A model generated the notes under the pieces. That model saw nothing but the letters and a program-made list of their open reading frames with translations. It was not told the DNA's origin and did not search any database. A stretch of 64,000 bases of DNA, taken from assembly GCA_963833125.1 (NCBI GenBank), contig CAWHWX010000001.1:224001-288000 (forward strand). Direction: 5' to 3'. The translations under genes and the position numbers were made by a program. Source of the DNA: Candidatus Bathyarchaeota archaeon (GTDB lineage: Archaea > Thermoproteota > Bathyarchaeia > 40CM-2-53-6). This document shows, piece after piece, positions 20,124 through 32,361 of the stretch (the first letter of the stretch is position 1; each line of letters begins with the position of its first letter).

Positions 20124-20504
20124 TTGGTGTCCAAGATGAGGATGAGTTTCAACGTGTTTGCTCTAGTACTACTCGTGAGCTCTACTCTTGCGTCAACCGT
20201 TATTGCGCAAGGGGTAACGATTGGGTACACGATTCATGTTGACTTCTTTGCATACTCCTGTAGCCTAGAAATAACGAAAGTTTCGCTTTTCGACCCCTTA
20301 GGCGATCTCCTTGGCGTGGCGACGAGCCCATATGGTGGAGAAGTTACGATTTCAATTAGAACGCAGACACCCATTTCTACCCTCACGGCAACAGCATACG
20401 GCCAAGCTACGTGGGGCTCTTACTATAGTTGGCTGGTGAGCGGGAGTGGCACCGTGAACCTAGGATCCACTGGAGATTATTGGGTCACTATCAGAATGAA
20501 CTGA
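20124..20504 (+). CDS. Secreted hypothetical beta-rich protein
   Basis: Signal peptide (...VIAQ) followed by a Thr/Ser/Gly-rich beta domain. Confidence 0.72.
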   Translation: MVSKMRMSFNVFALVLLVSSTLASTVIAQGVTIGYTIHVDFFAYSCSLEITKVSLFDPLGDLLGVATSPYGGEVTISIRTQTPISTLTATAYGQATWGSYYSWLVSGSGTVNLGSTGDYWVTIRMN

Positions 20505-20508
20505 TCGG

Positions 20509-21440
20509 CTATTTGATCTGTCGTTCTGCTCGTTTCTGAACCAGGTCAGCTAGGGCTGCGACGAAGGTTGGGTTTGAATTCAGAGAAGCAGTTCGCTTCA
20601 AGTTAAGGCCATTACTTCGAGCAAAGTCCTGAGCTTCCACATCAATATCATAAAGTATCTCAAGATGGTCCGCTACGAAACCGATGGGCACCACAAGAAC
20701 ATCAGTAAGGCTTCTGCGATCTTTGAGTTCACGCAAGAAGTCTATGAGATCTGGGCCCAACCATTTTTCATTGGTCTGTCCTGCGCTTTGGTATGCGAAT
20801 AACCATTGCTCGCGCCCTAGAAGTTTAACAACTGACTCGCAGGAGCTTTGAAGTTGAGTTGGATACGGATCCTTTGTCTGAAGGATCCGTTCGGGTAAAC
20901 TGTGAGCGGTGAAGAGCAATTCGACCTTTGAAGGCGCTGAAAATTGATTTAGAGCGGCCTGAATTTTCTCTTGGATTGCCTTGTGGAATAGCGGGTGACC
21001 GTACCAGCTCTCAATAAAATCCACATCCAAATGGCCAGAGTTAGCGACTGCCTGTTCTAACGCCTGCTTGTATCCTCCGATGCTCATTTGCGAATAATGA
21101 GGAGCCAGGACGAGTGCGATTATTCTCTCGAAACCGTCGTTAATAATTTGAGGGACGACTTCCCGAATGTACGGATGCCAATGCTTCATCCCCGTGTAAA
21201 CCTGAGTCTCCAAACCCTCCGAGTTCAGTTTCTGTTTGAGAGCCGATGCCTGCGCATTGGTTATGTCGAGTAACGGCGATCGTCCGCCTATCAGCGGTAT
21301 CGGTTCTTCAAATCTTCAACAGCGTCAGGTGTAGGTTTGTGGCCTCTTCTAATGTCGGTGAGGTAAGGCTCGATATCTTCCATTGAACTTGGTGTACCGT
21401 ACGCCATCAGAAGGACTGCTAACCCACCCGTAATGCTCAC
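20509..21440 (-). CDS. hemH: Ferrochelatase (coproporphyrin ferrochelatase CpfC type; frameshift near 21295)
   Basis: GTG at 21440 gives LLMAYGTP...YLTDIRRG. After a 1-nt shift the frame reads IGGRSPL..IT, then FTAHSLP, YQSAG, WLGPD and GFVADHLEILYDID. Confidence 0.9.
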
Positions 21441-22502
21441 TTACCTTGCGTCAATTGAGGATTGTTGAGTTGACTTGTGAACGAATTTTACGAGTTCAGC
21501 AACTTTCTGCACTGAGGCTTCAGGCAGCATGCCGTGTCCCAGATTGAATATGTGTCCGCTCCTACCGTCTACTTTTCTCAGAATCTCCTTCGACAACAGT
21601 TTGACTAGCTCCATGTCTGCGAGCAACGCAGCGGGGTCAAGGTTTCCTTGAATACCAACGTCATAACCCAACCGTTCCCAAGCAACATCGATTGGTATCC
21701 TCCAGTCGACCCCGAAGACATCACCCCCCGCGATCCTCATCTCTTCCAGAAGTGTCGATGTGCCAGTTCCAAAGTGAATTCTTGGCACTCCAGTTTCGCC
21801 CAGTTTCTGGAAGATGCGCTGTGAATATGGAAGCACGTAGTTGTGATAATCTTGCGGGCTAAGGCATCCAACCCAACTGTCGAAAAGCTGAACCGCATCA
21901 ACCCCGGATCGTATTTGTGCTAAGAGATAGGTGGCCATCGACTCTGAAAGTTTCTCCATCAGTGCATGCCATGTCTTTGGATCGCGATACATCAACGTCT
22001 TCACCTTGATGAAATCCCGAGTCGGGCGTCCCTCTATAAGATAACTTGCGATCGTGAAGGGTGCCCCGCAGAATCCAATCAAAGGCACTTTTCCATCCAA
22101 CATTTTCTTCGATACACCAATGGCTTCTAGGACAAAGGGCACATCGCTTGCCGGGTCCAGCGCCTCCAAAGATGTCACGGAATGCGCGTCAGTGATTGGT
22201 TGTTTGATGAGTGGGCCGACACCTTCCTCAATTTTGAACTCCACTCTCATCCCTTCTAGAGGTAACATGATGTCGGCGAACATAATTGCGGCGTCTACGC
22301 CTAAAGTGTCCACAGGCATTGTAGTGACCTTGGCGCACAGTTCGGGGTTCTTGCAGATTGAAATGATATCGTGTTTCTCTCTGATCTTCCTGTATTCGGG
22401 TAGAAAACGGCCTGCCTGGCGCATGAACCAGACTGGTGTCACATCAACTGACTGACGCCTGCAAGCCCTAATGAATCGATGATCCATCTTTCGAAACGGC
22501 AC
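21441..22502 (-). CDS. hemE: Uroporphyrinogen decarboxylase
   Basis: Motifs PVWFMRQAGRFLPEY, GFCGAPFTIASY, QGNLDP and FNLGHG. Confidence 0.97.
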   Translation of the reverse strand: MPFRKMDHRFIRACRRQSVDVTPVWFMRQAGRFLPEYRKIREKHDIISICKNPELCAKVTTMPVDTLGVDAAIMFADIMLPLEGMRVEFKIEEGVGPLIKQPITDAHSVTSLEALDPASDVPFVLEAIGVSKKMLDGKVPLIGFCGAPFTIASYLIEGRPTRDFIKVKTLMYRDPKTWHALMEKLSESMATYLLAQIRSGVDAVQLFDSWVGCLSPQDYHNYVLPYSQRIFQKLGETGVPRIHFGTGTSTLLEEMRIAGGDVFGVDWRIPIDVAWERLGYDVGIQGNLDPAALLADMELVKLLSKEILRKVDGRSGHIFNLGHGMLPEASVQKVAELVKFVHKSTQQSSIDAR

Positions 22503-23793
22503 TCCTAGGTCTCAATTGCTGAAACGCTCGCTTTGCAGCGTCAATCGTTTTCCTGACATCTCGTTCGGAATGGGCTGCTGAAACAAAAATTGTCTCGAAC
22601 GGAGAGGGAGGGAGGTAAACGCCGTGTTCCAGCATGGAATTGAAAACTAGCTTGTAGGCAGAGATATCACTGGACTTTGCGGAACTGTAATCCTTGACCT
22701 CAATGTATGTGAAAAACAATCCTAGCATTGACCCAATCCTATTCAACCATACGTCGCAGTCGTTTTCTCTCGCGGCTTCCAGTAGCCCTCGTTCCAACTT
22801 GGCTGAAGTCTTTTCTAGTTTCTCGTAGAAGCCTCGCCTCTTGATCTCGGTCAACGTAGCGATCCCCGCGGTCATTGCGAGCGGGTTTCCGGAAAGGGTT
22901 CCTGCTTGGTAGACGGGGCCGGTCGGTGCTACAAGATCCATGATCTTCCGCGAGCCACCGTATGCGCCGACGGGCAGGCCGCCGCCGATGATTTTGCCTA
23001 AGCATGTGAGGTCTGGTTGGATGCCGTAGAGCTTCTGAGCTCCACCTAGGGAGGCTCGGAATCCTGTAATTACTTCATCAAAGATGAGAAGGGATCCATA
23101 TTTCCGGGTGATTTCTCTGAGGTTTCGCAGATAATCTGATTTCGGGGGAACAAGTCCCATGTTTGCGGCAATTGGTTCAACAATAACCGCTGCGATTTCG
23201 TCGGGATGCTCTTCGAAGATCGATTTTACGGGTTCTGTGTCATTGTAAGGCGCAACAATCGTGTCTGATGTTGCTCCTGGGGTAACACCTGCTGAGTCAG
23301 GGATACCGAACGTTGCCATACCCGAACCTCCCTTCACCAGCATCGCATCGGAATGACCGTGGTAACAACCTTCGAACTTCAAAATCCTGTTGCGCTTCGT
23401 GTATGCGCGGGCAACCCTAAGCGTCGACATCACGGCTTCGGTTCCGGAATTAACAAAACGCAACTTTTCGATTAAGGGAAAGGAGTCCATAACTAGGTCT
23501 GCAAGATCGGTTTCAAGTCGAGTCGGAGCCCCATAGCTGGTTCCTCGGGGTAACGCAGTACGAAGAGCCCTTACGACCCTTGGGTTCGCGGATCCAAGGA
23601 TTAGCGCTCCCCAAGAACAAACGTAGTCGATGTAGCTGTTGCCGTCTTCGTCTTGTATCTTTGAGCCTCGTGCTCTCTTAATGAAGAGCGGGGTGCCGCC
23701 CACCGCCCGGAAGGCTCGGACAGGACTGTTCACGCCGCCAACGAGAACCTTACTGGCTTGCTCGTAAAGGGCTCTGGATGCGTCAACCTTCAA
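22468..23793 (-). CDS. hemL: Glutamate-1-semialdehyde 2,1-aminomutase
   Basis: Motifs GGVNSPVRAF, SGTEAVM, GCYHGHSD, GKIIGGGLPVG and QAGTLSGNP. Confidence 0.97.
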   Translation of the reverse strand: MKVDASRALYEQASKVLVGGVNSPVRAFRAVGGTPLFIKRARGSKIQDEDGNSYIDYVCSWGALILGSANPRVVRALRTALPRGTSYGAPTRLETDLADLVMDSFPLIEKLRFVNSGTEAVMSTLRVARAYTKRNRILKFEGCYHGHSDAMLVKGGSGMATFGIPDSAGVTPGATSDTIVAPYNDTEPVKSIFEEHPDEIAAVIVEPIAANMGLVPPKSDYLRNLREITRKYGSLLIFDEVITGFRASLGGAQKLYGIQPDLTCLGKIIGGGLPVGAYGGSRKIMDLVAPTGPVYQAGTLSGNPLAMTAGIATLTEIKRRGFYEKLEKTSAKLERGLLEAARENDCDVWLNRIGSMLGLFFTYIEVKDYSSAKSSDISAYKLVFNSMLEHGVYLPPSPFETIFVSAAHSERDVRKTIDAAKRAFQQLRPRSAVSKDGSSIH

Positions 23794-23819
23794 CGGAGTT
23801 CACGAGGGATTGAGCTGGC

Positions 23820-24542
23820 TTATCCAAGCAGCGGTAGAATTTCGTCAATTGGCATAGCTATGCATGTGAAGATGGGAGTTTCTAGCTCAGTGTAGCGACT
23901 TGCTTCGCTGCTCCTCAACTCCATGACCAAGTCTGAGAAGTCAGAAGGCTGATCTGTTTCAAAGGCGAGAACGAATTCTTGATCGTCCACGCCGAAGGAA
24001 TATCCTGTGTGAATTTGTACTGAAGGGTACTTGTGTCCAATCTTGAAGTGTTGTGCCATCATCTTGGTTCTATCTTCGTGTGGCAGGAAGTACCATTCAC
24101 GTTTCTTGATGAATGGGTAAACGAACATGTACTTCGAGTTGCTCGACAGGCTGGTTAGAGAGGTGCCCTCCTGTCCTTCATGGTGGTGGCCACCTAGGTA
24201 TTCGGATTTCTTGGTCATGGCTAGATATGAGTATGGTATCTCTAGATACTTTCCAAGATTAGACGATAGAAGTGCTGAGGTGAAGTCTTGGAACCGTTCA
24301 AGCTGTCCTGCAACCGTCCATAGCATGAAGTCGCAGTCGCCACGGATACCCACTAGAGAATAGCTCTTGAGAGGGTTATCTTTCACAAAGCCTGTTACTA
24401 TTGATGCGAACTCGTTTCTCGATGATGATTTTTCCTCAGTGTCGAGTCGTCTCCATTGCGGATCGACCTTGAAGAACGTGTACTTGAGGAATTGCCGCTC
24501 TGTGACTTGAACCGGTTCAACATTCGTAGAGGTTTGTGTCAC
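23820..24542 (-). CDS. hemQ: Coproheme decarboxylase (chlorite dismutase family ChdC/HemQ)
   Basis: YPFIKKREWY...MMAQH and YSFGVDDQEFVLAFE; GTG at 24542 after GGAGG; embedded in the hem operon. Confidence 0.88.
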   Translation of the reverse strand: MTQTSTNVEPVQVTERQFLKYTFFKVDPQWRRLDTEEKSSSRNEFASIVTGFVKDNPLKSYSLVGIRGDCDFMLWTVAGQLERFQDFTSALLSSNLGKYLEIPYSYLAMTKKSEYLGGHHHEGQEGTSLTSLSSNSKYMFVYPFIKKREWYFLPHEDRTKMMAQHFKIGHKYPSVQIHTGYSFGVDDQEFVLAFETDQPSDFSDLVMELRSSEASRYTELETPIFTCIAMPIDEILPLLG

Positions 24543-24543
24543 C

Positions 24544-25554
24544 TTAGTTAGCCTCCCGTAACCATTTGGCCGCGTCTTTGGCAAAGTATGTGATCATGAT
24601 GTTTGCCCCAGCTCGTTTTATGGCTGTCAGTGTCTCTAGCGCCACCCGTTTGTCGTCGAGCCAGCCTTTCTGTCCGGCTGCTTTGATCATTGCATATTCT
24701 CCGCTGACGTTATAGGCGGCTAGTGGGTGACGGAATCGGTTTCGTGCGTCCCTAATTACGTCTAGGTAGCTGAGCGCAGGTTTTACCATTATAATGTCCG
24801 CTCCTTCTCTGATGTCCATTTCGATCTCCCGTAGTGCCTCTCTGCGATTTGGTGGATCCATTTGGTAGGTGCGTCTATCTCCCCATAATGGCGTTGATTC
24901 GGCCGCTTCACGGAATGGCCCATAGAAGGCGGAAGCAAACTTGGCTGAATATGACATGATTGCGGTCTCCTGAAAACCTCGAGTGTCTAGTGCTAGTCGT
25001 ATTGCTTGAACTTGACCGTCCATCATGGCGCTTGGTCCGACAATGTCTGCGCCAGCTTCGGCATGTGAAACTGCGATTCGTGACAATAATTCTAACGTTT
25101 CATCGTTCTCTACTTTACCTTCGTGAATTACGCCACAATGCCCATGATCAGTATACTGACACAAACAAACATCTGTGACGACGACAAGCTGCGGGGCTAG
25201 CTTCTTGATGGTCCGTGCAGCTTGTTGGACTATCCCGTCGGTTGCGTAGGCCTCACTCCCGGAGCTGTCTTTGTGTTTGGGAAGACCGAAGAGCAAAACG
25301 GCAGGTATCTTCAAGCTTGTGACCTCGGCAATTTCATTCTTCAGTTCAGAGATTGAAAAGCGGTAGATACCTGGCATTGAGGGTATTTCTTCGCGGGCTG
25401 ACAGACGTTGATCTACAAAGACAGGATAGATGAAATCGGAACTTGAGAGCCGAGTTTCTCTCATCAGAGTTCGCAGAGACTCATGTTCCCTTAGTCTCCG
25501 GAGCCGATTAATGGGGCGTGTCTTCTCTGAAACTTCATACAGTTCTGATTTCAT
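24544..25554 (-). CDS. hemB: Porphobilinogen synthase
   Basis: Motifs DVCLCQYTDHGHCG, PSAMMDG, MVKPA and AYNVSGEY. Confidence 0.97.
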   Translation of the reverse strand: MKSELYEVSEKTRPINRLRRLREHESLRTLMRETRLSSSDFIYPVFVDQRLSAREEIPSMPGIYRFSISELKNEIAEVTSLKIPAVLLFGLPKHKDSSGSEAYATDGIVQQAARTIKKLAPQLVVVTDVCLCQYTDHGHCGVIHEGKVENDETLELLSRIAVSHAEAGADIVGPSAMMDGQVQAIRLALDTRGFQETAIMSYSAKFASAFYGPFREAAESTPLWGDRRTYQMDPPNRREALREIEMDIREGADIIMVKPALSYLDVIRDARNRFRHPLAAYNVSGEYAMIKAAGQKGWLDDKRVALETLTAIKRAGANIMITYFAKDAAKWLREAN

Positions 25555-26323
25555 TCTTTATCGCCTCTACGAGATCATCAATCGTGTGAGTCCTCGCTAC
25601 AATGTCGACATGAATTCCTAATTCTTTCGTCGCCTCAGCCGTGACGGGGCCGATACATGCGACCTTAACTCCCTTCAACAAAACTGACAGCTCATTTGCG
25701 CCCAGGATTTGAGCGAGATTTCGGACCGTCGACGGGCTAGTGAAAGTTACAACGTCTACACCTTGATTCAAGATCGACCTAAACCGGTCAGCTGACAAAC
25801 TCTCTGGGATAATCGTTCTATATGCTACAACCTCTTCCACTTTGGCTCCACGTTGCCTCAAAAGGTCAGGCAACTTCTTGGAAGCTATGTCGGCTCGTGG
25901 CAATAGGATTCGTTTGCCTTCCACGTCACCTAAACCAACCGCTATCTTCTCGGATAGATATTGTGTTGGCACATAATCAGCTTCCCTACCCAGGTCTTCT
26001 AAGGCAGCAGCCGTCGCAGGCCCTATCGCCGCGACCCTAACTTGTTTCAATTTAGCGAAGGACTCTCCGAGCGCTTTGAGGCGTTGACTAAAGAATTGCA
26101 CTCCGTGAACACTCGTGAATATCAGCCAATCATACTTCAAAATGCCTAGAATCGACTTGTCTAAAGGGTCCGTGTTGTTGGGAGGAACGATTGTGATGGT
26201 TGGGAGCTCTATTGTTGTAGCTCCTAGGTATCGGAGTTTCGCTGAAATATGGATACTCTGTTTTTCAGAGCGCGTGATGAGGATTTTTATGCCTTCGAGG
26301 GTTTTCATAGATGAAGTTTGCAT
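25535..26323 (-). CDS. hemD: Uroporphyrinogen-III synthase
   Basis: Motifs ILITR, FTSVHGV, AIGPAT, FTSPSTV and CIGPVT. Confidence 0.93.
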   Translation of the reverse strand: MQTSSMKTLEGIKILITRSEKQSIHISAKLRYLGATTIELPTITIVPPNNTDPLDKSILGILKYDWLIFTSVHGVQFFSQRLKALGESFAKLKQVRVAAIGPATAAALEDLGREADYVPTQYLSEKIAVGLGDVEGKRILLPRADIASKKLPDLLRQRGAKVEEVVAYRTIIPESLSADRFRSILNQGVDVVTFTSPSTVRNLAQILGANELSVLLKGVKVACIGPVTAEATKELGIHVDIVARTHTIDDLVEAIKNEIRTV

Positions 26324-27240
26324 TAGGCTGCCTCCAATACTAGTTGCGCGCCCTTGCTGAGGAGGGACTCTGCTAATTCTTCTCCAACCTTTTTTGGATC
26401 TGATTTGTCTGAAATGAGCTTCGTACGCAAAAGCAATCTTCCATCCGATGAAGCGACCATGCCGTCTATCGTCAATTTCACCTCGTGCACGGTGGCGAAT
26501 GCTGCAATAGGTGTTTGACAGTTGGCTCCGAGTTTTCTCGCGAATGCTCTTTCAGCCTCAACGGCTCTGTGTGTGGGTTCATGGTTTATTCGGGAAAGGA
26601 GTTCAACCATTTCTTCATCGTCCTCTCTAATCTCAACTGCAAGCGCTCCTTGACCGATGGCAGGAAGCATGATCCGAGTCGATAGTAACTCAGTAGCGCG
26701 CCTTTCCATACCCAGTCGCGAGAGACCTGCGGCCGCCACGATTATTGCATCATATTCTCCTGCATCGAGTTTCCGTAGGCGCGTGTCGACATTTCCATGC
26801 ATTTCTAGAATACGCAAGTCGTTGCGTGCGGCTAAGAGTTGTGTCCTCCGACGAGGACTGCTCGTGCCTACCCGGGCTCCACCCGAAAGCTGCTCAAATT
26901 TTTGCTTGTCGCGCGAAATTAGTGCGTCTCTATGGTCGGCGCGTTGCGGGACAGCCGCTATCTTCAAGCCTGTGGGTAGCTCGGCTGTTAGATCCTTCAT
27001 GCTGTGAACCGCAATACGAATTTTCTTATCGAGCAGTGATTCCTCAATCTCTCTTGTGAATAATCGCTTACTGTTGAGAGCGCCAGCTGCAGAGTCCCGC
27101 CTATTGTCTCCTTGCGTTTTGATTGCGGCCACTTCGAAGCGAAAGTTTAACTCGAGTTTCTTTAGGGCCTCGATTATTTGCTTTGTCTGGGCAAGAGCGA
27201 GCGCACTTCCTCTGGTGCCCACGATAATGGGGTTTTTCAC
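26323..27240 (-). CDS. hemC: Hydroxymethylbilane synthase
   Basis: Motifs GTRGSALALAQ, VHSMKD, GTSSPRR, GNVDTRL and GANCQTPI. Confidence 0.97.
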   Translation of the reverse strand: MKNPIIVGTRGSALALAQTKQIIEALKKLELNFRFEVAAIKTQGDNRRDSAAGALNSKRLFTREIEESLLDKKIRIAVHSMKDLTAELPTGLKIAAVPQRADHRDALISRDKQKFEQLSGGARVGTSSPRRRTQLLAARNDLRILEMHGNVDTRLRKLDAGEYDAIIVAAAGLSRLGMERRATELLSTRIMLPAIGQGALAVEIREDDEEMVELLSRINHEPTHRAVEAERAFARKLGANCQTPIAAFATVHEVKLTIDGMVASSDGRLLLRTKLISDKSDPKKVGEELAESLLSKGAQLVLEAA

Positions 27241-28541
27241 TCTTCGCTTTGCCGTCCTATACCGAAGAGTTCTCGGATCATGGCTTGGAATTTTTCGCCA
27301 TCGCCGTTGGACGTATGTTCCTTTAGCCTAACAGTCGGTTCGTAGAGGAGCTTGTTTACTATCCGACGTGTCAGTAGGTCAACAATGGCTTTTTCGCGAC
27401 TTGGTAAATCACCAAGTTTTCTTAGCGCTCTTGATAGCTCCTTTTCACGGATATTCTCGGCGACCTTCCTGAGGTCCTTTAGGGTATCGTTGGCTTCGTA
27501 GGCTCGCATATGAGTATCGAAATTGTCTACTTGTTTGCGCGTGAGCTCCTCAGCTTTTGCAATCTTCGCTTGGTACACTTTCTTTTGATCTTCCATGAAG
27601 GCTGTTAAGTCGTCGATATTGTACAGCTGCAGCCCAGGGATAAGAGCCGAGTCGGGGTTTACGTTGCGCGGCACACCAACATCGATAACAGTTAGTTCTT
27701 TGCCGTTGCGTTTGACCATAGCGTTCTGAAGATCCTCGGGACCTATCACATAACCTGCGGAGGATATGCAGGTGAGAACAACATCGGCCTTCTGAAGCAC
27801 ACTGGGAATCTCTTCTAGTCCTACGGCTTTTCCTGAAATCTGAGATGCCAGGTCTTGAGCCCGCTGCACGGTCCTGTTCGCAACAAACACCTCGACCCCT
27901 GGAAACGCGGACAAATCCTCGGCTGCGAGGGAGATCATCTTCCCTGCACCCACTAGCAGGATTGTTTCAATGCGTTGCTTCCCCGACAACTCCTTCAACA
28001 TCAGAGTAACGGCGGAGCTCACTGATACCCGTTCTGAATCTAGGCCGCTCAGATTTCTGATGGTGTTCGCGGCTTTGTAGGCGTGGCGGAAGAGTTCCGA
28101 CAGAAAAGGTCCGCTCGTTTGTGTCTGATTCGCGATTCTGAAAGCTTGCTTTACCTGTCCCTGGATCTGCTGTTCTCCTACAGCCAAAGAATCGAGGCCT
28201 GAGGCTACAGAGATCAAATGCAGTACTGCGTCCTCGCCAGTTACAGCATACGTGTACTGTTCGATATCTGCGGGTTGGATGCCGCTCCACTCGCTCATGA
28301 TTCTCCTTATGTCTCTTGCAATATCGCTCTCTAGAGGAGAGACGGCGTAGACTTCTGTCCTATTACAGGTTGACAAAATCACCGCTTCCTCGATATTGGT
28401 TTGGTTAACGGTTGACCTGAGCCGGTCTGGCAACTTCCCTTGAGGACACCAGAGCCGTTCTCGCACATCTATGGGCGCGTGTTTGTGGTTCGTGCCCACC
28501 ATTGTAAGTTTCCGATTTGAAGCGTTCGACATTGTTCTCAC
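27237..28541 (-). CDS. hemA: Glutamyl-tRNA reductase
   Basis: Motifs LSTCNRTEVY, ASGLDS..GEQQI, GAGKM and DVGVPRN. Confidence 0.97.
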   Translation of the reverse strand: MRTMSNASNRKLTMVGTNHKHAPIDVRERLWCPQGKLPDRLRSTVNQTNIEEAVILSTCNRTEVYAVSPLESDIARDIRRIMSEWSGIQPADIEQYTYAVTGEDAVLHLISVASGLDSLAVGEQQIQGQVKQAFRIANQTQTSGPFLSELFRHAYKAANTIRNLSGLDSERVSVSSAVTLMLKELSGKQRIETILLVGAGKMISLAAEDLSAFPGVEVFVANRTVQRAQDLASQISGKAVGLEEIPSVLQKADVVLTCISSAGYVIGPEDLQNAMVKRNGKELTVIDVGVPRNVNPDSALIPGLQLYNIDDLTAFMEDQKKVYQAKIAKAEELTRKQVDNFDTHMRAYEANDTLKDLRKVAENIREKELSRALRKLGDLPSREKAIVDLLTRRIVNKLLYEPTVRLKEHTSNGDGEKFQAMIRELFGIGRQSEE

Positions 28542-28554
28542 CCGTATTGAACAA

Positions 28555-29142
28555 TCATGTTGGCTTCATGGCTAGGAGAAAGAATTCGGAAAGGTACGCC
28601 GCGGCTTCTGTCGGTTTGTAGTTGCGTCTGAAATGTATCTGTTGAAAAACAAAACGATTCATCATACCTAGAAGACATTCAGCGGCCATTCTCGGATCGG
28701 TTTCACGAAACTCGCCTGACTCGATTCCTTTCTCAACGATAGCATTGAGGACGGATTGAATTCTGGCTAGGTCGGCAGCCAAGGTTTTTCGTCCAACTGA
28801 ATCAAGTTCCTCTGTCGAGTGCCGAACGTACAGACCAACGTTCAAGTGATCCTTAGGAAAGTGGGCAAGGTAGCTGCGTGCGAAAGCTCGTATCTGGGCA
28901 CTTGGTCCCGCCGCTTTCTCGCATTCTTCGTTTAGTTTCGTTATGAAGCCTGTCAGACTTACGCTTTCGCGCACAACCGCGTCAAACAGGGCTTCTTTGT
29001 TTTTGAAGTAGTAGTAGACTGTGGGTGGGGTGACATCGGCGGCTCTGCATATGTCACGCATAGCTACGTTTGAGAACCCACGCTGAGTGAAGAGTTCTTT
29101 CGCGACTTCGAGTATGCGTTGTTCTTGGGTAACCGTAGTCAT
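28555..29142 (-). CDS. TetR/AcrR family transcriptional regulator
   Basis: HTH RILEVAKELF..RGF...MRDICRAADVTPPTVYYYFKNKEAL; ATG at 29142. Confidence 0.93.
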   Translation of the reverse strand: MTTVTQEQRILEVAKELFTQRGFSNVAMRDICRAADVTPPTVYYYFKNKEALFDAVVRESVSLTGFITKLNEECEKAAGPSAQIRAFARSYLAHFPKDHLNVGLYVRHSTEELDSVGRKTLAADLARIQSVLNAIVEKGIESGEFRETDPRMAAECLLGMMNRFVFQQIHFRRNYKPTEAAAYLSEFFLLAMKPT

Positions 29143-29147
29143 CGAAT

Positions 29148-30311
29148 TCAGCTCAGAACAGGTGTATGCATTGATGTCAGCTCTTCCGCATGTGGAATGT
29201 AAGGGCAAGCGGGGTCTTCTTCCAACGGGTCGCCAAACTCAGCGAAAGCCCTAGAGCGTGAACCTCCACAGATCTCCTTGTATTCGCAAACGCCACACCG
29301 TCCTTTCAGCTTCGAAGAATCCCTCAAGGCGATGAATAATGGGTTTGATCGATATATCGAGCTGAGGCTCTGGCTCGGAACCCTGCCAGTGCTTATGGGT
29401 AGAAAACCGCTTGGATAAACCTCTCCGTCGTAGGTTACGAAGAGAATCCCCCTTCCATCTCTTGTAGGAGTAGACTTCAGAGAGGGGGAACTCGTGGGCT
29501 TTCCTTCAAGCGTTCGCAATCTGTCTGTCAGATTTCGATAAAGCTCCCCGTTCGGAGGTGCGTGACCGTTTCCTCGCTCAGCACGTATTCTTCTGAAGTG
29601 GGGACCCTCCGCGGTTCGCACAGGCACCCCATAATGCGATGCCTCGAAGAGAAAATGCATGATTTCTTCACATTCCGTTGCCTCGAGACTCTCAAGCGAT
29701 GCTCCTCGGCCTGTTCGAATTAGGAAAAATACTTCCCAAGCGACCGCTCCACTCTGCTTTACAATGTGAAATATTTCAGCTAACTCGTTGACGTTGCTCC
29801 TCATCACTGTTGTATTGATTTGTGCCCTCAATCCCGTGCTCTTCGCAGATTGCATCGCCTGGATCGTCTTTTGCCATGTGCCTCTGATTCCACGAAGCCT
29901 GTCATGGGTTTCGGGTGACGCTCCGTCAAGGCTGACGGATATGATATCAACGCCTTTCTCTTTCATTCTAGAAACCGTGGTCTCGTTCAGTTTTGGCGTC
30001 ACGCTAGCCGCCACGGCCACATAGATGGATTTGCCTTTGGCGTAATCGATTAAGTCGAAGATGTCGTCCCGCATTAGCGGGTCGCCGCCGGTAAGTAGAA
30101 GCGCTGGGTAAGGTTGTCCAAAATTCACAAGTTGATCGATGAGTTCCAACCCTTGTAGATAATCTAGTTCACCCGGCATCCGGTTCCTGATCGCTCTCGC
30201 CCGACAATGCCTGCAAGATAGGAGACAGGCCTTCGTTGTTTCCCAACAAACGAAGACAGGTGCCTCGGAGAGATCGCTTCTCATCGTCCACGGAGGTCGT
30301 GTGGAACTCAA
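29148..30311 (-). CDS. Radical SAM/SPASM protein, NirJ/AhbD-related (TIGR04053-like)
   Basis: Motifs WETTKACLLSCRHCRA, TGGDP, GEVYPSGFLP and CGVCEYKEICGGSRSRA...DPAC; first gene of the hem operon. Confidence 0.88.
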   Translation of the reverse strand: MSSTRPPWTMRSDLSEAPVFVCWETTKACLLSCRHCRARAIRNRMPGELDYLQGLELIDQLVNFGQPYPALLLTGGDPLMRDDIFDLIDYAKGKSIYVAVAASVTPKLNETTVSRMKEKGVDIISVSLDGASPETHDRLRGIRGTWQKTIQAMQSAKSTGLRAQINTTVMRSNVNELAEIFHIVKQSGAVAWEVFFLIRTGRGASLESLEATECEEIMHFLFEASHYGVPVRTAEGPHFRRIRAERGNGHAPPNGELYRNLTDRLRTLEGKPTSSPSLKSTPTRDGRGILFVTYDGEVYPSGFLPISTGRVPSQSLSSIYRSNPLFIALRDSSKLKGRCGVCEYKEICGGSRSRAFAEFGDPLEEDPACPYIPHAEELTSMHTPVLS

Positions 30312-30514: not shown

Positions 30515-31288
30515 TTGAGTTACCAGAATGTATTGGTTACAAAGGAGGGCGCCATCGGCATAGTTCAATTGAATCGTCCGAAAGTTTTGAACGCCCTCAA
30601 TTTCGAGCTTATGACGGAACTGGTAATCGCGCTTGAGGAATTAGATAGAGAAGAAGCCGTCAAGGTGATGATTCTTACGGGCGGCGAAAGAGCCTTCGCG
30701 GCCGGAGCTGACTTGGCCGAAATGTCGCAGGATACACTGGTTGACCTAGTGCTTGATCGAAGGTTTGAGCTGTGGGATCGCATCAGGAAGATCTCGAAGC
30801 CCATCATAGCAGCCGTTAGCGGTTACTGCCTGGGAGGCGGAAATGAGCTGGCTATGAATTGTGACTTCATTATCGCATCCGAGACAGCGACGTTCGGTCA
30901 ACCAGAGGTAAACGTTGGGATCATTCCTGGCGCTGGTGGGACGCAACGTCTACCGCGCGTTGTTGGAAAATACAAAGCGATGGAAATGATTCTGACGGGC
31001 AAGAGTATTTCGGCGGACGAAGCGTATAGGATTGGTTTAGTTAATCATGTAGTTCCTCCTGAAAGCTTGATGGAGGAAGCTAAGAAGATCGCCACCGATA
31101 TCGCGTCAAAACCTCCAATCTCAATCAGATTCGCCAAAGAAGCGATCTTGAGAGCACAGGACACGACACTTGAAGTTGGTCTAGAGTTTGAACGCAAAGC
31201 GTTCTATATGCTGTTCGCCACTGAGGATGGAAAGGAAGGCATGAAGGCCTTCCTAGAGAAGAGGAAACCAACATTCAAAGGGAAGTAG
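30515..31288 (+). CDS. Enoyl-CoA hydratase (PaaF-like)
   Basis: Motifs LNRPKVLNAL, AFAAGADL, LGGGNEL and GQPEVNVGIIPGAGGTQRL; both catalytic Glu present. Confidence 0.92.
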   Translation: MSYQNVLVTKEGAIGIVQLNRPKVLNALNFELMTELVIALEELDREEAVKVMILTGGERAFAAGADLAEMSQDTLVDLVLDRRFELWDRIRKISKPIIAAVSGYCLGGGNELAMNCDFIIASETATFGQPEVNVGIIPGAGGTQRLPRVVGKYKAMEMILTGKSISADEAYRIGLVNHVVPPESLMEEAKKIATDIASKPPISIRFAKEAILRAQDTTLEVGLEFERKAFYMLFATEDGKEGMKAFLEKRKPTFKGK

Positions 31289-31289
31289 A

Positions 31290-31544
31290 ATGAAACGCCG
31301 GCTTTTTGAAATCGGCTTTATTGGCTCAGCGATTGCCTTAGTTGGTTTGGTTGGCCTACTGAATTGCCTTCAAGGTACCCCATTTCTGGGGGGTCTGAAA
31401 TGCAACTATGCGCTCACGTCAAGTGATTTGGTGATAAAGCTGGGCGCTACCGCGGTTTTTCTTCTCTTTCTTGCATTGCTGCTCGGCCCAGTACTTGCCA
31501 CGCTTATTCAACCAGGTTTCAACAAGCAAAAGAATCCTACCTGA
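31290..31544 (+). CDS. Small membrane protein (2 TM)
   Basis: 84-aa hydrophobic ORF starting 1 nt after the upstream stop. Confidence 0.6.
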   Translation: MKRRLFEIGFIGSAIALVGLVGLLNCLQGTPFLGGLKCNYALTSSDLVIKLGATAVFLLFLALLLGPVLATLIQPGFNKQKNPT

Positions 31545-31560
31545 CTTTGAGGGATCGTAA

Positions 31561-32361
31561 ACGAGCCAACCTTACCAGACGATCATTTACGAAAAATCTG
31601 AGAACGTCGCTACAATAACGCTCAACAGGCCGGAAGTACTCAACGCTGTAAACGAGAGAATGGGACGAGAACTCATGGACGCCCTGAAGGGAATCTCGCA
31701 AGACGATGAGGTACGTTCAGTTATCATGACAGGTAAAGGCAGAGCGTTCTCCGCAGGAGAGGATATTCAAGACCTGCGAGGGCAGTATGAGAGAGGCGAG
31801 AATCCTAGACTTGGTGAGAGGCTTCATTACAAATACAACCCTATCATCAGACGCATCCGGCAAATGTCGAAGCCAGTCATCGCCGCCGTCAATGGTGTGG
31901 CCGCGGGAGCCGGGGCAGGAATCGCATATTCTTGCGACTTTCGGATTGTTGCCGAAAACGCAAAGTTCATTCAAGCATTCATTCGCGTTGGCCTTGCACC
32001 GGACTCTGGAACTAGCTTCTTCCTTCCAAGACTGGTGGGTTTTGCAAAAGCACTAGAGCTGTCATTAACCGGTGACGAACTCACGGCCAAAGACGCCGAA
32101 AACCTAGGATTGACGTCCAAAGTTGTTCCATTAGATCAATTGATGCCAATCACCAGAGAACTCGCCGTTAAATTGTCTCTGGGCCCTACCAAGGCGATCG
32201 GCCTCACAAAGCGGGCGCTGAACAAATCAATCTCTTCTGACTTGGAAACCGTTCTAGAGTATGAGAGCTATTTGCAAGAGATCGCCGGTGCGACGTCCGA
32301 TCATCTTGAAGCTGTCCGTGCTTTCTTCGACAAGAGAAAGCCGGTTTTCAAAGGAAACTAA
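31561..32361 (+). CDS. Crotonase-family isomerase, PaaG-like (probable ACG start)
   Basis: The frame is open from ACG at 31561 (…YQTIIYEKSENVATITLNRPEVLNA). Motifs FSAGED, NGVAAGAG and AFIRVGLAPDSG, where Asp replaces the hydratase Glu pair as in PaaG. Confidence 0.85.
   Translation, partial: TSQPYQTIIYEKSENVATITLNRPEVLNAVNERMGRELMDALKGISQDDEVRSVIMTGKGRAFSAGEDIQDLRGQYERGENPRLGERLHYKYNPIIRRIRQMSKPVIAAVNGVAAGAGAGIAYSCDFRIVAENAKFIQAFIRVGLAPDSGTSFFLPRLVGFAKALELSLTGDELTAKDAENLGLTSKVVPLDQLMPITRELAVKLSLGPTKAIGLTKRALNKSISSDLETVLEYESYLQEIAGATSDHLEAVRAFFDKRKPVFKGN

What the first reader, a model, noticed from the sequence alone, without database searches (positions are those of the whole stretch)
20509..30311. 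Archaeal coproporphyrin-dependent heme operon with the oxidase step missing and a radical SAM gene leading it
Seen: one minus-strand operon, radicalSAM-tetR-hemA-hemC-hemD-hemB-hemQ-hemL-hemE-hemH. Known: most heme-making archaea use the siroheme (Ahb) route, while HemE plus CpfC-type HemH plus ChdC define the Gram-positive coproporphyrin route, which also needs a coproporphyrinogen oxidase (CgoX/HemY or alternatives). That is the only step absent here. AhbD-like activity would duplicate ChdC. Inference: the TIGR04053-like radical SAM protein is either an anaerobic coproheme decarboxylase giving an oxic/anoxic switch, or the missing coproporphyrinogen dehydrogenase.
Basis: partly seen in the sequence, partly recalled or inferred. 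Interest (0 to 1): 0.72.

Follow-up and report, generated by a model that had tools for sequence, protein, structure and literature searches.

The report
Archaeal heme operon led by AhbD-type enzyme
A peat Bathyarchaeon carries a bacterial-style heme operon that lacks every known coproporphyrinogen oxidase, and its leading radical SAM gene is most likely an oxygen-independent heme synthase working beside HemQ rather than the missing oxidase.

Summary
The operon is real: ten tightly packed minus-strand genes, rSAM-tetR-hemA-hemC-hemD-hemB-hemQ-hemL-hemE-hemH. hemH carries a one-base frameshift. The genome is a Bathyarchaeon. No HemY/CgoX, CgoN, HemG, HemJ, HemN or HemF was found in it or in four to eleven operon-bearing relatives, and no AhbA or SUMT in it, so the oxidase gap is real. 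The radical SAM protein belongs to TIGR04053. It has the Cys motifs and the Glu/Thr/Ser/Ser signature published for single-auxiliary-cluster AhbD of non-methanogenic archaea. Clade relatives sit in AhbAB-AhbC-SUMT clusters, where they are the only AhbD candidate. In 15 Thermoplasmatales genomes without HemQ they are the only candidate decarboxylase. Best reading (about 0.65): an oxygen-independent coproheme decarboxylase working in parallel with ChdC. The reading "rSAM is the missing oxidase" is about 0.12. A CopD-family membrane protein is a candidate oxidase. It lies beside the rSAM in Thermoplasmatales heme clusters and unlinked in this genome, but in only 5 of 12 of these Bathyarchaeia.

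The parts
29148..30311 (-). Radical SAM protein of family TIGR04053, an AhbD-type heme synthase with a single auxiliary cluster. The start is uncertain: TTG at 30311 or ATG at 30284.
   Evidence: TIGR04053 475.4 bits (cut-off 395) and AhbD TIGR04545 276 bits (cut-off 500). Motifs: CX3CX2C at C29/C33/C36 and C339-X2-C342-X5-C348-X20-C369. E235, T283, S301 and S351 stand where full-SPASM AhbD has Cys. The database gene call of 343 aa starts at M45 and would lack the CX3CX2C motif.
28555..29208 (-). TetR-family regulator inside the operon.
   Evidence: PF00440 67.8 bits. It is conserved between the rSAM and the hem genes in Bathyarchaeial loci only.
27237..28541 (-). hemA, glutamyl-tRNA reductase.
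   Evidence: TIGR01035 381.4 bits, cut-off 209.55.
26323..27240 (-). hemC, hydroxymethylbilane synthase.
   Evidence: TIGR00212 344.3 bits, cut-off 164.
25535..26323 (-). hemD, uroporphyrinogen-III synthase.
   Evidence: PF02602 224.7 bits.
24544..25554 (-). hemB, porphobilinogen synthase.
   Evidence: NF006762 506.9 bits, cut-off 297.
23820..24584 (-). hemQ/chdC, a chlorite-dismutase-family coproheme decarboxylase.
   Evidence: PF06778 190.1 bits. NCBIfam HemQ_actino gives 138.9 bits, below its cut-off of 235.
22468..23793 (-). hemL, glutamate-1-semialdehyde aminomutase.
   Evidence: TIGR00713 611.7 bits, cut-off 527.3.
21441..22502 (-). hemE, uroporphyrinogen decarboxylase.
   Evidence: TIGR01464 413.9 bits, cut-off 302.95.
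21291..21440 (-). hemH, N-terminal piece of 49 residues, ending in TGA after ...DLKNRYR.
   Evidence: It aligns to residues 1-49 of the intact HemH of L047, L008 and L013.
20509..21315 (-). hemH, remainder in another frame (ferrochelatase). The one-base frameshift lies within 21291-21315.
   Evidence: PF00762 226 bits over profile positions 88-316. The piece continues exactly at ...IGGRSPLL of the relatives.

Best explanation
The locus is a complete heme b operon of the HemE/ferrochelatase/ChdC (coproporphyrin-dependent) type in an oxygen-respiring peat Bathyarchaeon. It is fronted by an AhbD-type radical SAM heme synthase.

Proposed flow:
1. HemA, HemL, HemB, HemC and HemD make uroporphyrinogen III.
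2. HemE makes coproporphyrinogen III.
3. An oxidase outside all known families makes coproporphyrin III.
4. HemH inserts iron, giving coproheme.
5. Coproheme is decarboxylated to heme b by either of two enzymes: the H2O2-dependent ChdC (HemQ), or the O2-independent radical SAM enzyme. The latter would use SAM cleavage at the CX3CX2C cluster, H-abstraction from the propionate, and electron exit through its single C-terminal auxiliary cluster.

This gives the organism one terminal step for oxic and one for anoxic phases of a peat habitat.

Shown: gene identities and order; absence of all known oxidases and of the siroheme route; the AhbD-type sequence signature; clade relatives in AhbD positions.
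Inferred: the enzyme's substrate, the division of labour with ChdC, and co-transcription.
Inferred with lower confidence (about 0.3): the missing oxidase is the CopD-family four-helix membrane protein at G000:C23:30837-31331. It would act in the manner of HemJ without being a member of that family.

The hemH frameshift is most likely an assembly indel.
For: 1. Family and signature.
- TIGR04053 475 bits, and the nearest characterised family is AhbD.
- The protein has CX3CX2C and CX2CX5CX20C.
- Where full-SPASM AhbDs carry the AuxI cysteines, it has E235, T283, S301 and S351. These are conserved in 22/22, 21/22, 22/22 and 22/22 clade members.
- Fix et al. 2023 (PMC10452713, passages) describe this pattern for AhbDs of non-methanogenic archaea: the C-terminal four-Cys motif kept, and the four other SPASM cysteines replaced by Glu, Thr and two Ser.

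2. Phylogeny.
- The protein lies in a 68-row clade with 99 SH-like support.
- That clade also holds metagenomic relatives of 47-52% identity that sit next to AhbA/B and AhbC genes. L161, L162, L164, L167, L173 and L185 have rSAM followed by an AhbAB fusion. L179 and L189 have SUMT, AhbC and AhbAB in the cluster.
- NCBIfam confirms this for L173, L179 and L189, and tblastn for the rest.
- In those clusters it is the only candidate for the AhbD step.

3. Thermoplasmatales sample of 61 genomes.
- 15 genomes carry the clade's rSAM and have no HemQ (0 of 15) and no HemY (0 of 15).
- In all six of the 15 whose cluster I fetched, it lies beside hemE-hemH.
- So it is their only possible decarboxylase.

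4. Only 12 columns separate this subclade from its paralogous group at 90% conservation or more, and most of the changes are conservative.

5. Precedent. In Haloferax volcanii, deleting pitA (ChdC) impairs aerobic growth and deleting ahbD impairs anaerobic growth, and heme rescues both (PMC5746218, passages). AhbD also occurs in coproporphyrin-pathway bacteria that lack other Ahb enzymes (PMC13564367, passages).

6. No siroheme route here. No SUMT in G000, G151 or G152; no AhbA over cut-off in 0 of 12 genomes; the operon's rSAM is the only AhbD-like gene.

7. Heme-copper oxidase subunit I in 5 of 5 of these genomes, so the lineage meets oxygen.

8. CopD-like candidate.
- A homologue sits directly beside the rSAM in 14 of 15 HemQ-less Thermoplasmatales clusters.
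- It is found in 29 of 61 genomes of that order, exactly the 29 with the clade's rSAM.
- It is missing from the single genome that has HemY.
- G000 has one: hmmsearch E 5.9e-26 and PF05425 44.9 bits.
Against: 1. No enzyme assay exists for any member of this subclade. Function rests on homology and context.

2. Under this reading the oxidase is unaccounted for in 7 of 12 operon-bearing Bathyarchaeial genomes and 3 of 5 Nitrososphaeria-labelled ones. These lack the CopD-like gene as well as HemY, CgoN, HemG and HemJ.

3. Eight peat spirochaete genomes carry this protein's orthologue and a 39%-identical paralogue in one hemE operon, with no HemY, HemQ or ferrochelatase. Two isofunctional decarboxylases in one operon is odd.

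4. In the 41 genomes searched, the narrow subclade holding the window's protein always has another candidate decarboxylase (HemQ or the paralogue) wherever the assembly is adequate. So it is never shown to be needed for that step.

5. That subclade has two private cysteines, C22 (22/22) and C214 (20/22), of unknown role.

6. The protein scores far below the AhbD equivalog cut-off: 276 against 500.

7. The CopD-like protein does not match the HemJ model and has no informative structural neighbour.
Confidence: 0.65

Rival explanations
1. The radical SAM protein is the missing oxygen-independent coproporphyrinogen III dehydrogenase. It would abstract hydrogen from the bridging methylene carbons and pass electrons out through its auxiliary cluster. 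The pathway would then be HemE, rSAM, HemH, ChdC.
For: - All known oxidases are absent from 12 of 12 Bathyarchaeial genomes, 5 of 5 Nitrososphaeria-labelled genomes and 8 of 8 type-a spirochaete genomes that carry this subclade.
- With this assignment, those archaeal pathways become complete.
- In type-a spirochaetes it co-occurs in one operon with a paralogue that could be the decarboxylase.
- The subclade has private cysteines C22 and C214.
- Wherever the subclade occurs in an adequate assembly, HemQ or the paralogue is also present.
Against: - Nearest clade relatives fill the AhbD slot of AhbAB-AhbC-SUMT clusters.
- 15 Thermoplasmatales genomes with the sister group have no other decarboxylase.
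- The active-site scaffold and the Glu/Thr/Ser/Ser signature are those of published archaeal AhbDs.
- Few columns discriminate it from the paralogue.
- I found no radical SAM porphyrinogen ring oxidase in the passages read.
- Type-b spirochaetes have it together with HemY.
Confidence: 0.12
2. The radical SAM protein acts like HemN on the metal-free substrate (coproporphyrinogen III to protoporphyrinogen IX). A CopD-like membrane protein oxidises protoporphyrinogen in the way HemJ does, and HemH is a protoporphyrin ferrochelatase. This would be a protoporphyrin-type route, with ChdC as an extra.
For: The HemQ-less Thermoplasmatales clusters (rSAM, CopD-like, hemE, hemH) would then form a complete classical pathway. 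HemN and AhbD perform the same side-chain chemistry (PMC13564367, passages).
Against: - ChdC is present in 12 of 12 Bathyarchaeial genomes and sits inside the operon, which would be purposeless under this reading.
- The CopD-like gene is missing from 7 of 12 of them.
- Clade relatives in Ahb clusters must take coproheme.
Confidence: 0.08
3. Nothing is biologically missing or special. A cgoX lies in the unassembled 12% of the genome, or the operon is decaying, with the hemH frameshift real.
For: The genome is 87.8% complete with 7% contamination. hemH is frameshifted.
Against: - HemY is absent from all 11 other operon-bearing Bathyarchaeial genomes, including ones with contigs of 1.4 and 2.36 Mb.
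- hemH is otherwise undamaged over 312 aligned columns.
- G000 shows other split genes (COX1, DAO, GCV_T), which is the pattern of indel errors.
- Relatives have intact hemH.
Confidence: 0.05

Closest known systems
AhbD (heme b synthase) of non-methanogenic archaea, the single-auxiliary-cluster type (Fix et al. 2023, PMC10452713)
   Same: - Radical SAM CX3CX2C motif.
- C-terminal CX2CX5CX20C motif.
- Glu, Thr and two Ser in place of the four AuxI cysteines.
- Clade relatives sit with AhbA/B, AhbC and SUMT.
   Different: - Here it is not in a siroheme-type cluster. It leads a hemE/hemH/hemQ operon in a genome without SUMT, AhbA/B or AhbC.
- It scores 276 bits on the AhbD equivalog model against a cut-off of 500.
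- It has private C22 and C214.
Haloferax volcanii PitA (ChdC) plus AhbD dual terminal step (Kosugi et al. 2017, PMC5746218)
   Same: An archaeon with both a chlorite-dismutase-family coproheme decarboxylase and an AhbD. In H. volcanii they are used aerobically and anaerobically respectively.
   Different: In Haloferax, coproheme comes from siroheme through AhbABC. Here it must come from HemE, an unknown oxidase and HemH. In this genome the two genes share one operon.
Coproporphyrin-dependent pathway of Firmicutes and Actinobacteria (HemE, CgoX, CpfC, ChdC), some with AhbD
   Same: HemE, ferrochelatase and ChdC are present. An AhbD homologue without other Ahb genes is as reported for some Gram-positive bacteria (PMC13564367).
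   Different: CgoX is absent, as is the alternative CgoN (YtpQ, PF07285). The host is an archaeon. The Bacillaceae and Acidobacteria homologues belong to the paralogous group, at 39-43% identity.
Thermoplasmatales hemE plus hemH genomes with no recognisable oxidase (Storbeck et al. 2010, PMC3004389)
   Same: The same gap. [quoted passage not shown] Genomes of that order carry the sister group of this rSAM.
   Different: In that order the rSAM always comes with the CopD-like gene (29 of 29), and half of the genomes lack HemQ. In the Bathyarchaeia, HemQ is constant and the CopD-like gene is patchy.
HemJ, the membrane protoporphyrinogen oxidase (PF03653)
   Same: The CopD-like candidate is also a small multi-helix membrane protein, with an invariant histidine in helix 1. 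That HemJ binds heme b is recalled from memory, not taken from a call.
   Different: There is no match to PF03653 in the genomes or in the protein itself, even at E up to 10. This is a resemblance in kind only.

Membership tests
TIGR04053 radical SAM/SPASM family (NCBIfam equivalog, no function assigned) | Whole-protein score at or above the curated cut-off of 395 bits. | tested here: met
   475.4 bits; 475.3 bits in the genome search.
AhbD heme b synthase (TIGR04545 equivalog) | Score at or above the curated cut-off of 500 bits. | tested here: not met
   276.1 bits. AhbDs inside ahbABCD clusters of other Bathyarchaeia also fall short, at 411-441 bits, so the model is narrow.
AhbD heme b synthase | Radical SAM CX3CX2C motif plus the C-terminal CX2CX5CX20-38C auxiliary-cluster motif (Fix et al. 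2023). | tested here: met
   C29, C33 and C36, and C339, C342, C348 and C369, are conserved in all groups aligned.
AhbD heme b synthase, full-SPASM subgroup (methanogens, sulfate reducers) | Four further cysteines for a second auxiliary cluster (AuxI). | tested here: not met
   E235, T283, L290/S301 and S351 stand at those columns. This matches the other published subgroup, the non-methanogenic archaea.
AhbD heme b synthase | Genomic association with AhbA/B, AhbC and the siroheme genes. | tested here: not met
   None in this genome. The feature is met by clade relatives L161, L162, L164, L167, L173, L179, L185 and L189.
AhbD heme b synthase | Converts coproheme to heme b with SAM. | not testable with these tools
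   Needs an anaerobic enzyme assay.
Coproporphyrin-dependent heme pathway | HemE (UroD) present. | tested here: met
   TIGR01464 413.9 bits, cut-off 302.95.
Coproporphyrin-dependent heme pathway | Coproporphyrinogen oxidase CgoX (HemY family) or CgoN present. | tested here: not met
   TIGR00562 gives only N-terminal FAD-motif matches of 21.6 bits or less in G000. None over cut-off in 11 of 11 further operon-bearing Bathyarchaeial genomes. PF07285 in 0 of 5.
Coproporphyrin-dependent heme pathway | Ferrochelatase present and intact. | tested here: inconclusive
   PF00762 226 bits, but the gene is split by a one-base frameshift. Public contigs did not cover the site. Substrate preference was not tested.
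Coproporphyrin-dependent heme pathway | ChdC (HemQ) present. | tested here: met
   PF06778 190 bits. It is below the NCBIfam HemQ_actino cut-off, 139 against 235, so it is a member at the Pfam family level only.
HemJ (PF03653), for the CopD-like candidate oxidase | Match to the family model. | tested here: not met
   No PF03653 match in 5 of 5 genomes, nor among the Pfam hits of the four CopD-like proteins at E up to 10. They match PF05425 CopD at 35-45 bits.

The most novel reading that the evidence does not exclude
The narrow subclade that holds the window's protein (Bathyarchaeia, Nitrososphaeria-labelled MAGs and peat spirochaetes, marked by private C22 and C214) has changed function. From coproheme decarboxylase it would have become a radical SAM coproporphyrinogen III dehydrogenase. 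That would be the long-missing oxygen-independent oxidase of archaeal HemE/HemH pathways. It would make the type-a spirochaete operon (this enzyme, its paralogue and hemE) a fully anaerobic coproporphyrin route.
Probability: 0.12. Interest if true: 0.85.

Novelty: new variant of a known kind. Interest (0 to 1): 0.55.

Why it matters
Heme-making archaea are taken to use the siroheme route. A HemE/HemH/ChdC operon with an AhbD-type enzyme in oxygen-respiring peat Bathyarchaeia widens that picture. It also shows the ChdC/AhbD pair outside haloarchaea.

More usefully, the work sharpens a gap that has been open since 2010: archaea with hemE and hemH but no porphyrinogen oxidase. It gives two concrete, cloneable candidates. 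One is the rSAM itself, which is unlikely. The other is a CopD-family membrane protein that, in the 61 Thermoplasmatales-order genomes sampled, occurred in exactly the 29 that carry the rSAM. Either result would add an enzyme to the heme pathway map. I found no paper that links CopD-family proteins with HemJ or names TIGR04053 (searches returned none), and none of the ten papers from the Bathyarchaeota heme search, seen as a listing with passages read in two, described this operon.

Tried and rejected
- Reads for the frameshift. The look-up of sequencing runs found 8 runs holding parts of 20400-22600, with a best share of 0.24. Read laying on X1, X7, X8 and X2 gave no contig over 20844-21583, so the frameshift site is untested.

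- Structure of the CopD-like protein. The AlphaFold2 model was built on a 4-row alignment and has pLDDT 80.7 and four long helices. Foldseek against the PDB gave no match at E up to 0.001; the best was E 0.34, to designed helical bundles. This is uninformative.

- The protein-atlas search placed it among CopD-family clusters at 0.90-0.91. That gives a name only.

- PDB sequence search with the rSAM found only PqqE, BlsE, SkfB and a tetraether synthase. No AhbD structure turned up.

- DUF4491, the small membrane proteins in the spirochaete type-a cluster, were found in 0 of 5 Bathyarchaeial genomes. HemJ was found in 0 of 5 spirochaete, acidobacterial and Bacillaceae genomes, so I had no HemJ sequence for a profile comparison.

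- A second radical SAM gene next to hemB in L105 scores only 69 bits on TIGR03961 (cut-off 306). It sits with glycosyltransferase genes, so I dropped it as unrelated.

- I considered the long stem branch of the subclade (length 1.64) as a sign of changed function. Denser sampling broke it up, so I no longer use it.

- I considered the CopD-like protein as the universal missing oxidase. I rejected it as universal because it is present in only 8 of the 41 genomes searched.

- The search for homologous proteins listed only close relatives, with generic names.

- Papers. Dailey et al. 2017 (PMC5312243) is not held; what I say of it is recalled. Figure S1 of Fix et al. 2023 (the full AhbD alignment) and S1 Fig of Kosugi et al. 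2017 may bear on which AhbDs carry the Glu/Thr/Ser/Ser signature. The control line says that one of Haloferax volcanii and Methanosarcina acetivorans passes the TIGR04053 cut-off but not which. That it is Haloferax is my inference.

- Rows dropped from the trees:
  - the partial sequences of L044, L062 and L077, and the second copies in L033 and L081.
  - 8 'Bathy-other' rows and 5 acidobacterial rows.
  - the duplicates L094, L095 and L097.
  - every group thinned at random to at most 7 rows, and matches covering fewer than 300 query residues left out.
  - Searches are FastTree trees with SH-like support only.

- hemE and hemH in the HemQ-less Thermoplasmatales group were checked only in the loci fetched, which cover 6 of the 15 genomes.

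Full report
**What is in the window.** One search lists ten consecutive minus-strand ORFs from 30311 down to 20509. Pfam and NCBIfam identify them as a TIGR04053 radical SAM protein, a TetR regulator, HemA, HemC, HemD, HemB, a chlorite-dismutase-family HemQ/ChdC, HemL, HemE and ferrochelatase. Neighbouring genes overlap or abut, apart from a 26-base gap between hemQ and hemL. The flanks are unrelated: two enoyl-CoA hydratases upstream and small secreted proteins downstream.

hemH is in two frames, a 49-residue N-terminal piece ending in TGA (21291-21440) and the remainder (20509-21315). Aligned with the intact HemH of three relatives, the pieces meet exactly at ...RYR / IGGRSPLL with no other damage.

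The same assembly has other split genes: COX1 on contig C12, and a DAO oxidoreductase and a GCV_T protein on C23. I therefore read the frameshift as a probable indel error. Public contigs did not cover the site, so this is not settled.

**Whose genome.** The window is part of a 3.07-Mb, 39-contig genome that is 87.8% complete with 7% contamination. The closest loci to the radical SAM gene, at 66-91% identity, are mostly titled Candidatus Bathyarchaeia or Bathyarchaeota MAGs. Further relatives are MAGs labelled Nitrososphaerales, Nitrosopumilales or Thaumarchaeota, a Thermoplasmataceae MAG, and, at 59-63%, many peat Spirochaetota. Heme-copper oxidase subunit I is present in 5 of 5 operon-bearing Bathyarchaeial genomes searched. 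This lineage therefore meets oxygen and needs heme.

**Is the oxidase really missing?** Yes, for every family I could search.
- HemY/CgoX (TIGR00562) gives only short N-terminal FAD-motif matches in the own genome. Nothing passes the cut-off in 11 further Bathyarchaeial genomes that carry the operon, among them assemblies with contigs of 1.4 and 2.36 Mb.
- CgoN/YtpQ (PF07285), HemN (TIGR00538), HemJ (PF03653) and HemF (PF01218) are each absent from 5 of 5 genomes.
- HemG-type flavodoxin (PF12724) is absent from 4 of 5, with one 27.5-bit match in G154.
- The siroheme route is also out. There is no SUMT in G000, G151 or G152. No AhbA passes the cut-off in 0 of 12 genomes. The operon's own gene is the only AhbD-like radical SAM gene.

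So coproheme must arise from HemE, an unknown oxidation and HemH.

**What the radical SAM protein is.** It passes the TIGR04053 cut-off (475 against 395) and scores 276 on the AhbD model, whose cut-off is 500. In alignments it has the CX3CX2C motif (C29, C33, C36) and a C-terminal C339-X2-C342-X5-C348-X20-C369 motif. AhbDs that sit in ahbA-ahbB-ahbC-ahbD clusters of other Bathyarchaeia (verified) carry further cysteines. At those positions the window's protein and its whole clade have E235, T283, S301 and S351.

Fix et al. 2023 (PMC10452713; passages read) report just these two kinds of AhbD. Methanogens and sulfate reducers have the full SPASM motif. Non-methanogenic archaea keep only the C-terminal four-cysteine motif and replace the others with conserved glutamate, serine and, in their Aeropyrum model, threonine. 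By sequence, the window's protein is therefore the published single-auxiliary-cluster kind of AhbD.

**Phylogeny and context.** The first tree (IQ-TREE quick, 82 rows) separated four groups:
- AhbC.
- The cluster-borne AhbDs.
- A paralogous group ("R2": Bacillaceae, Acidobacteria and a second spirochaete copy).
- The window's group ("R1").

R1 sat on a long stem. Two things changed the picture. The first was a search of 61 genomes of the Thermoplasmataceae MAG's order. The second was a metagenome scan with an R1 alignment.

The larger tree (FastTree, 92 rows) shows a 68-row clade with 99 support. It holds a Thermoplasmatales group, metagenomic sequences of 47-52% identity, and the narrow R1 subclade (22 rows, 99 support). 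Eight of the metagenomic loci place the enzyme beside AhbA/B and AhbC genes:
- L161, L162, L164, L167, L173 and L185 have rSAM followed by an AhbAB fusion.
- L179 and L189 also have SUMT in the cluster.

NCBIfam confirms L173, L179 and L189 and tblastn the rest. In such clusters the only step left for this enzyme is coproheme to heme.

**The Thermoplasmatales test.** In the order sample, 15 genomes carry the clade's rSAM at 43-49% identity. In each of the six whose cluster I fetched it leads the operon rSAM-[166-aa gene]-hemL-hemC-hemD-hemA-hemB, read divergently from hemE-hemH. Those 15 have no HemQ (0 of 15) and no HemY (0 of 15). Most have no second AhbD-like gene. If these organisms make heme, this enzyme must be the decarboxylase.

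A further 14 genomes have the rSAM plus HemQ. This is the same order for which Storbeck et al. 2010 (PMC3004389; passages) noted hemE and hemH without any oxidase and called the route unclear.

**What argues the other way.**
- Eight spirochaete genomes of 3.5-5.0 Mb carry R1-hemA-hemC-hemD-hemB-R2-hemE in one cluster. All 8 lack HemY, HemQ, ferrochelatase and AhbA. Seven of the 8 show both radical SAM copies. Two decarboxylases and no oxidase is an awkward reading there. One oxidase plus one decarboxylase would be neater.
- In the narrow R1 subclade another candidate decarboxylase is always present where the assembly is adequate.
- The subclade has two private cysteines, C22 and C214.

I weigh this less than the evidence above for two reasons. 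Decarboxylation cannot happen without an enzyme. Porphyrinogen oxidation, by contrast, can be slow and spontaneous in air (recalled from memory, from no call). It has also repeatedly turned out to depend on unrelated proteins found late; CgoN, for example, dates from 2024 (PMC10965808, passages).

**A candidate for the gap.** The 166-aa gene directly after the rSAM in the Thermoplasmatales clusters is a CopD-family (PF05425) membrane protein.
- In the 61-genome sample it occurs in 29 genomes. These are exactly the 15 plus 14 that have the clade's rSAM.
- It lies within 100 bases of the rSAM in 14 of the 15 HemQ-less genomes.
- It is missing from the only genome that has HemY.
- An HMM built from three such proteins finds a homologue in the window's own genome at G000:C23:30837-31331 (E 5.9e-26; PF05425 44.9 bits). 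That copy sits in an unrelated neighbourhood. A broken second copy lies on C18.
- Another adjacency appears in L186.
- The family has an invariant histidine in its first helix and models as four long helices.
- It does not match HemJ.
- It is present in only 5 of 12 operon-bearing Bathyarchaeial genomes, 2 of 5 Nitrososphaeria-labelled ones and 0 of 18 spirochaetes.

It could therefore fill the gap in this genome. It cannot be the general answer for the lineage.

**Comparison with what is known.** The ChdC/AhbD pair has a tested precedent in Haloferax volcanii. There, loss of pitA hurts aerobic growth, loss of ahbD hurts anaerobic growth, and heme rescues both (PMC5746218, passages). AhbD without other Ahb genes is reported for some Gram-positive bacteria with the coproporphyrin route (PMC13564367, passages).

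What differs here is the host (Bathyarchaeia), the single operon uniting early genes, hemE, hemH, hemQ and ahbD under a TetR gene, and the consistent lack of any known oxidase. A survey of archaeal pathways reports the coproporphyrin route as complete only in some Halobacteria and one Hydrothermarchaeota genome (PMC11459464, passages). The Bathyarchaeota porphyrin paper does not mention these genes (PMC7110647). Searches for TIGR04053 and for HemJ together with CopD returned no papers.

**Verdict.** The oxidase gap is real and long-standing, and it now has a testable candidate. Novelty is a new variant of a known kind. Interest is 0.55.

Noticed in passing
G000:C23:30837-31331 (L109:8838-9332), with a broken second copy at G000:C18:157375-157807: A CopD-family four-helix membrane protein. 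Its homologue sits directly after the rSAM in Thermoplasmatales heme clusters. In a 61-genome sample it occurs in exactly the 29 genomes that have the clade's rSAM, and not in the one genome with HemY. It is a candidate for the missing porphyrinogen oxidase.
   Followed up: partly
L037, L038, L041, L068, L035 (for example L038:10007-20246): Peat spirochaete clusters of the form R1-hemA-hemC-hemD-hemB-R2-hemE, followed in L037 and L041 by two small membrane proteins and then hemL (one search placed DUF4491 only in L038). The 8 genomes have no ferrochelatase, HemQ, HemY or AhbA. This looks like an undescribed route from coproporphyrinogen to heme, with an unknown chelatase.
   Followed up: partly
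L182:8465-11815: A metagenome cluster hemA-hemC-hemD-hemB-hemL-hemE-[160-aa unknown]-rSAM-[173-aa CbiX-like chelatase]. A small class II chelatase may stand in for HemH here.
   Followed up: no
window 29148-30311, residues C22 and C214: Two cysteines are private to the Bathyarchaeia/Nitrososphaeria-labelled/spirochaete subclade (22 of 22 and 20 of 22). Nearest relatives have Phe and Tyr/Asn/Trp at those positions. Their role is unknown.
   Followed up: partly
window 30180-30311: The database gene call for this protein is 343 aa and starts at M45, downstream of the CX3CX2C motif. Relatives are 378-395 aa, so the real start is upstream (TTG 30311 or ATG 30284). Several relatives in the protein database share the short call.
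   Followed up: partly
G000:C12:135510-136687; L109:9368-10567 and L109:10573-13371: Heme-copper oxidase subunit I, a DAO-family oxidoreductase and a GCV_T-domain protein are each split into two frames, like hemH. The assembly seems to carry scattered indel errors.
   Followed up: no
Trees; L025 against L026-L045: The spirochaete R1 sequences form one clade nested among archaeal ones, sister to a Nitrososphaerales-labelled MAG. This suggests transfer between domains in peat. Some Bathyarchaeia-like loci are titled Acidiferrales or Acidoferrum (L011, L018, L061), which may be mis-binning.
   Followed up: no
G181:C6:3-1512: A second TIGR04053-like copy (375 bits) in a Thaumarchaeota-labelled MAG is immediately followed by a CopD-like gene. 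This is the same pairing as in the Thermoplasmatales.
   Followed up: no
L132:9992-16481 and L141:9977-19240: Two Bathyarchaeia-like metagenome operons lack hemQ between hemB and hemE/hemL. Whether hemQ lies elsewhere in those genomes could not be checked.
   Followed up: partly
window 30515-32361: Two enoyl-CoA hydratase genes with an 84-aa ORF between them lie divergently upstream of the operon. ORFs of matching sizes lie in the same place in L008, L010 and L047, though I did not annotate those.
   Followed up: no
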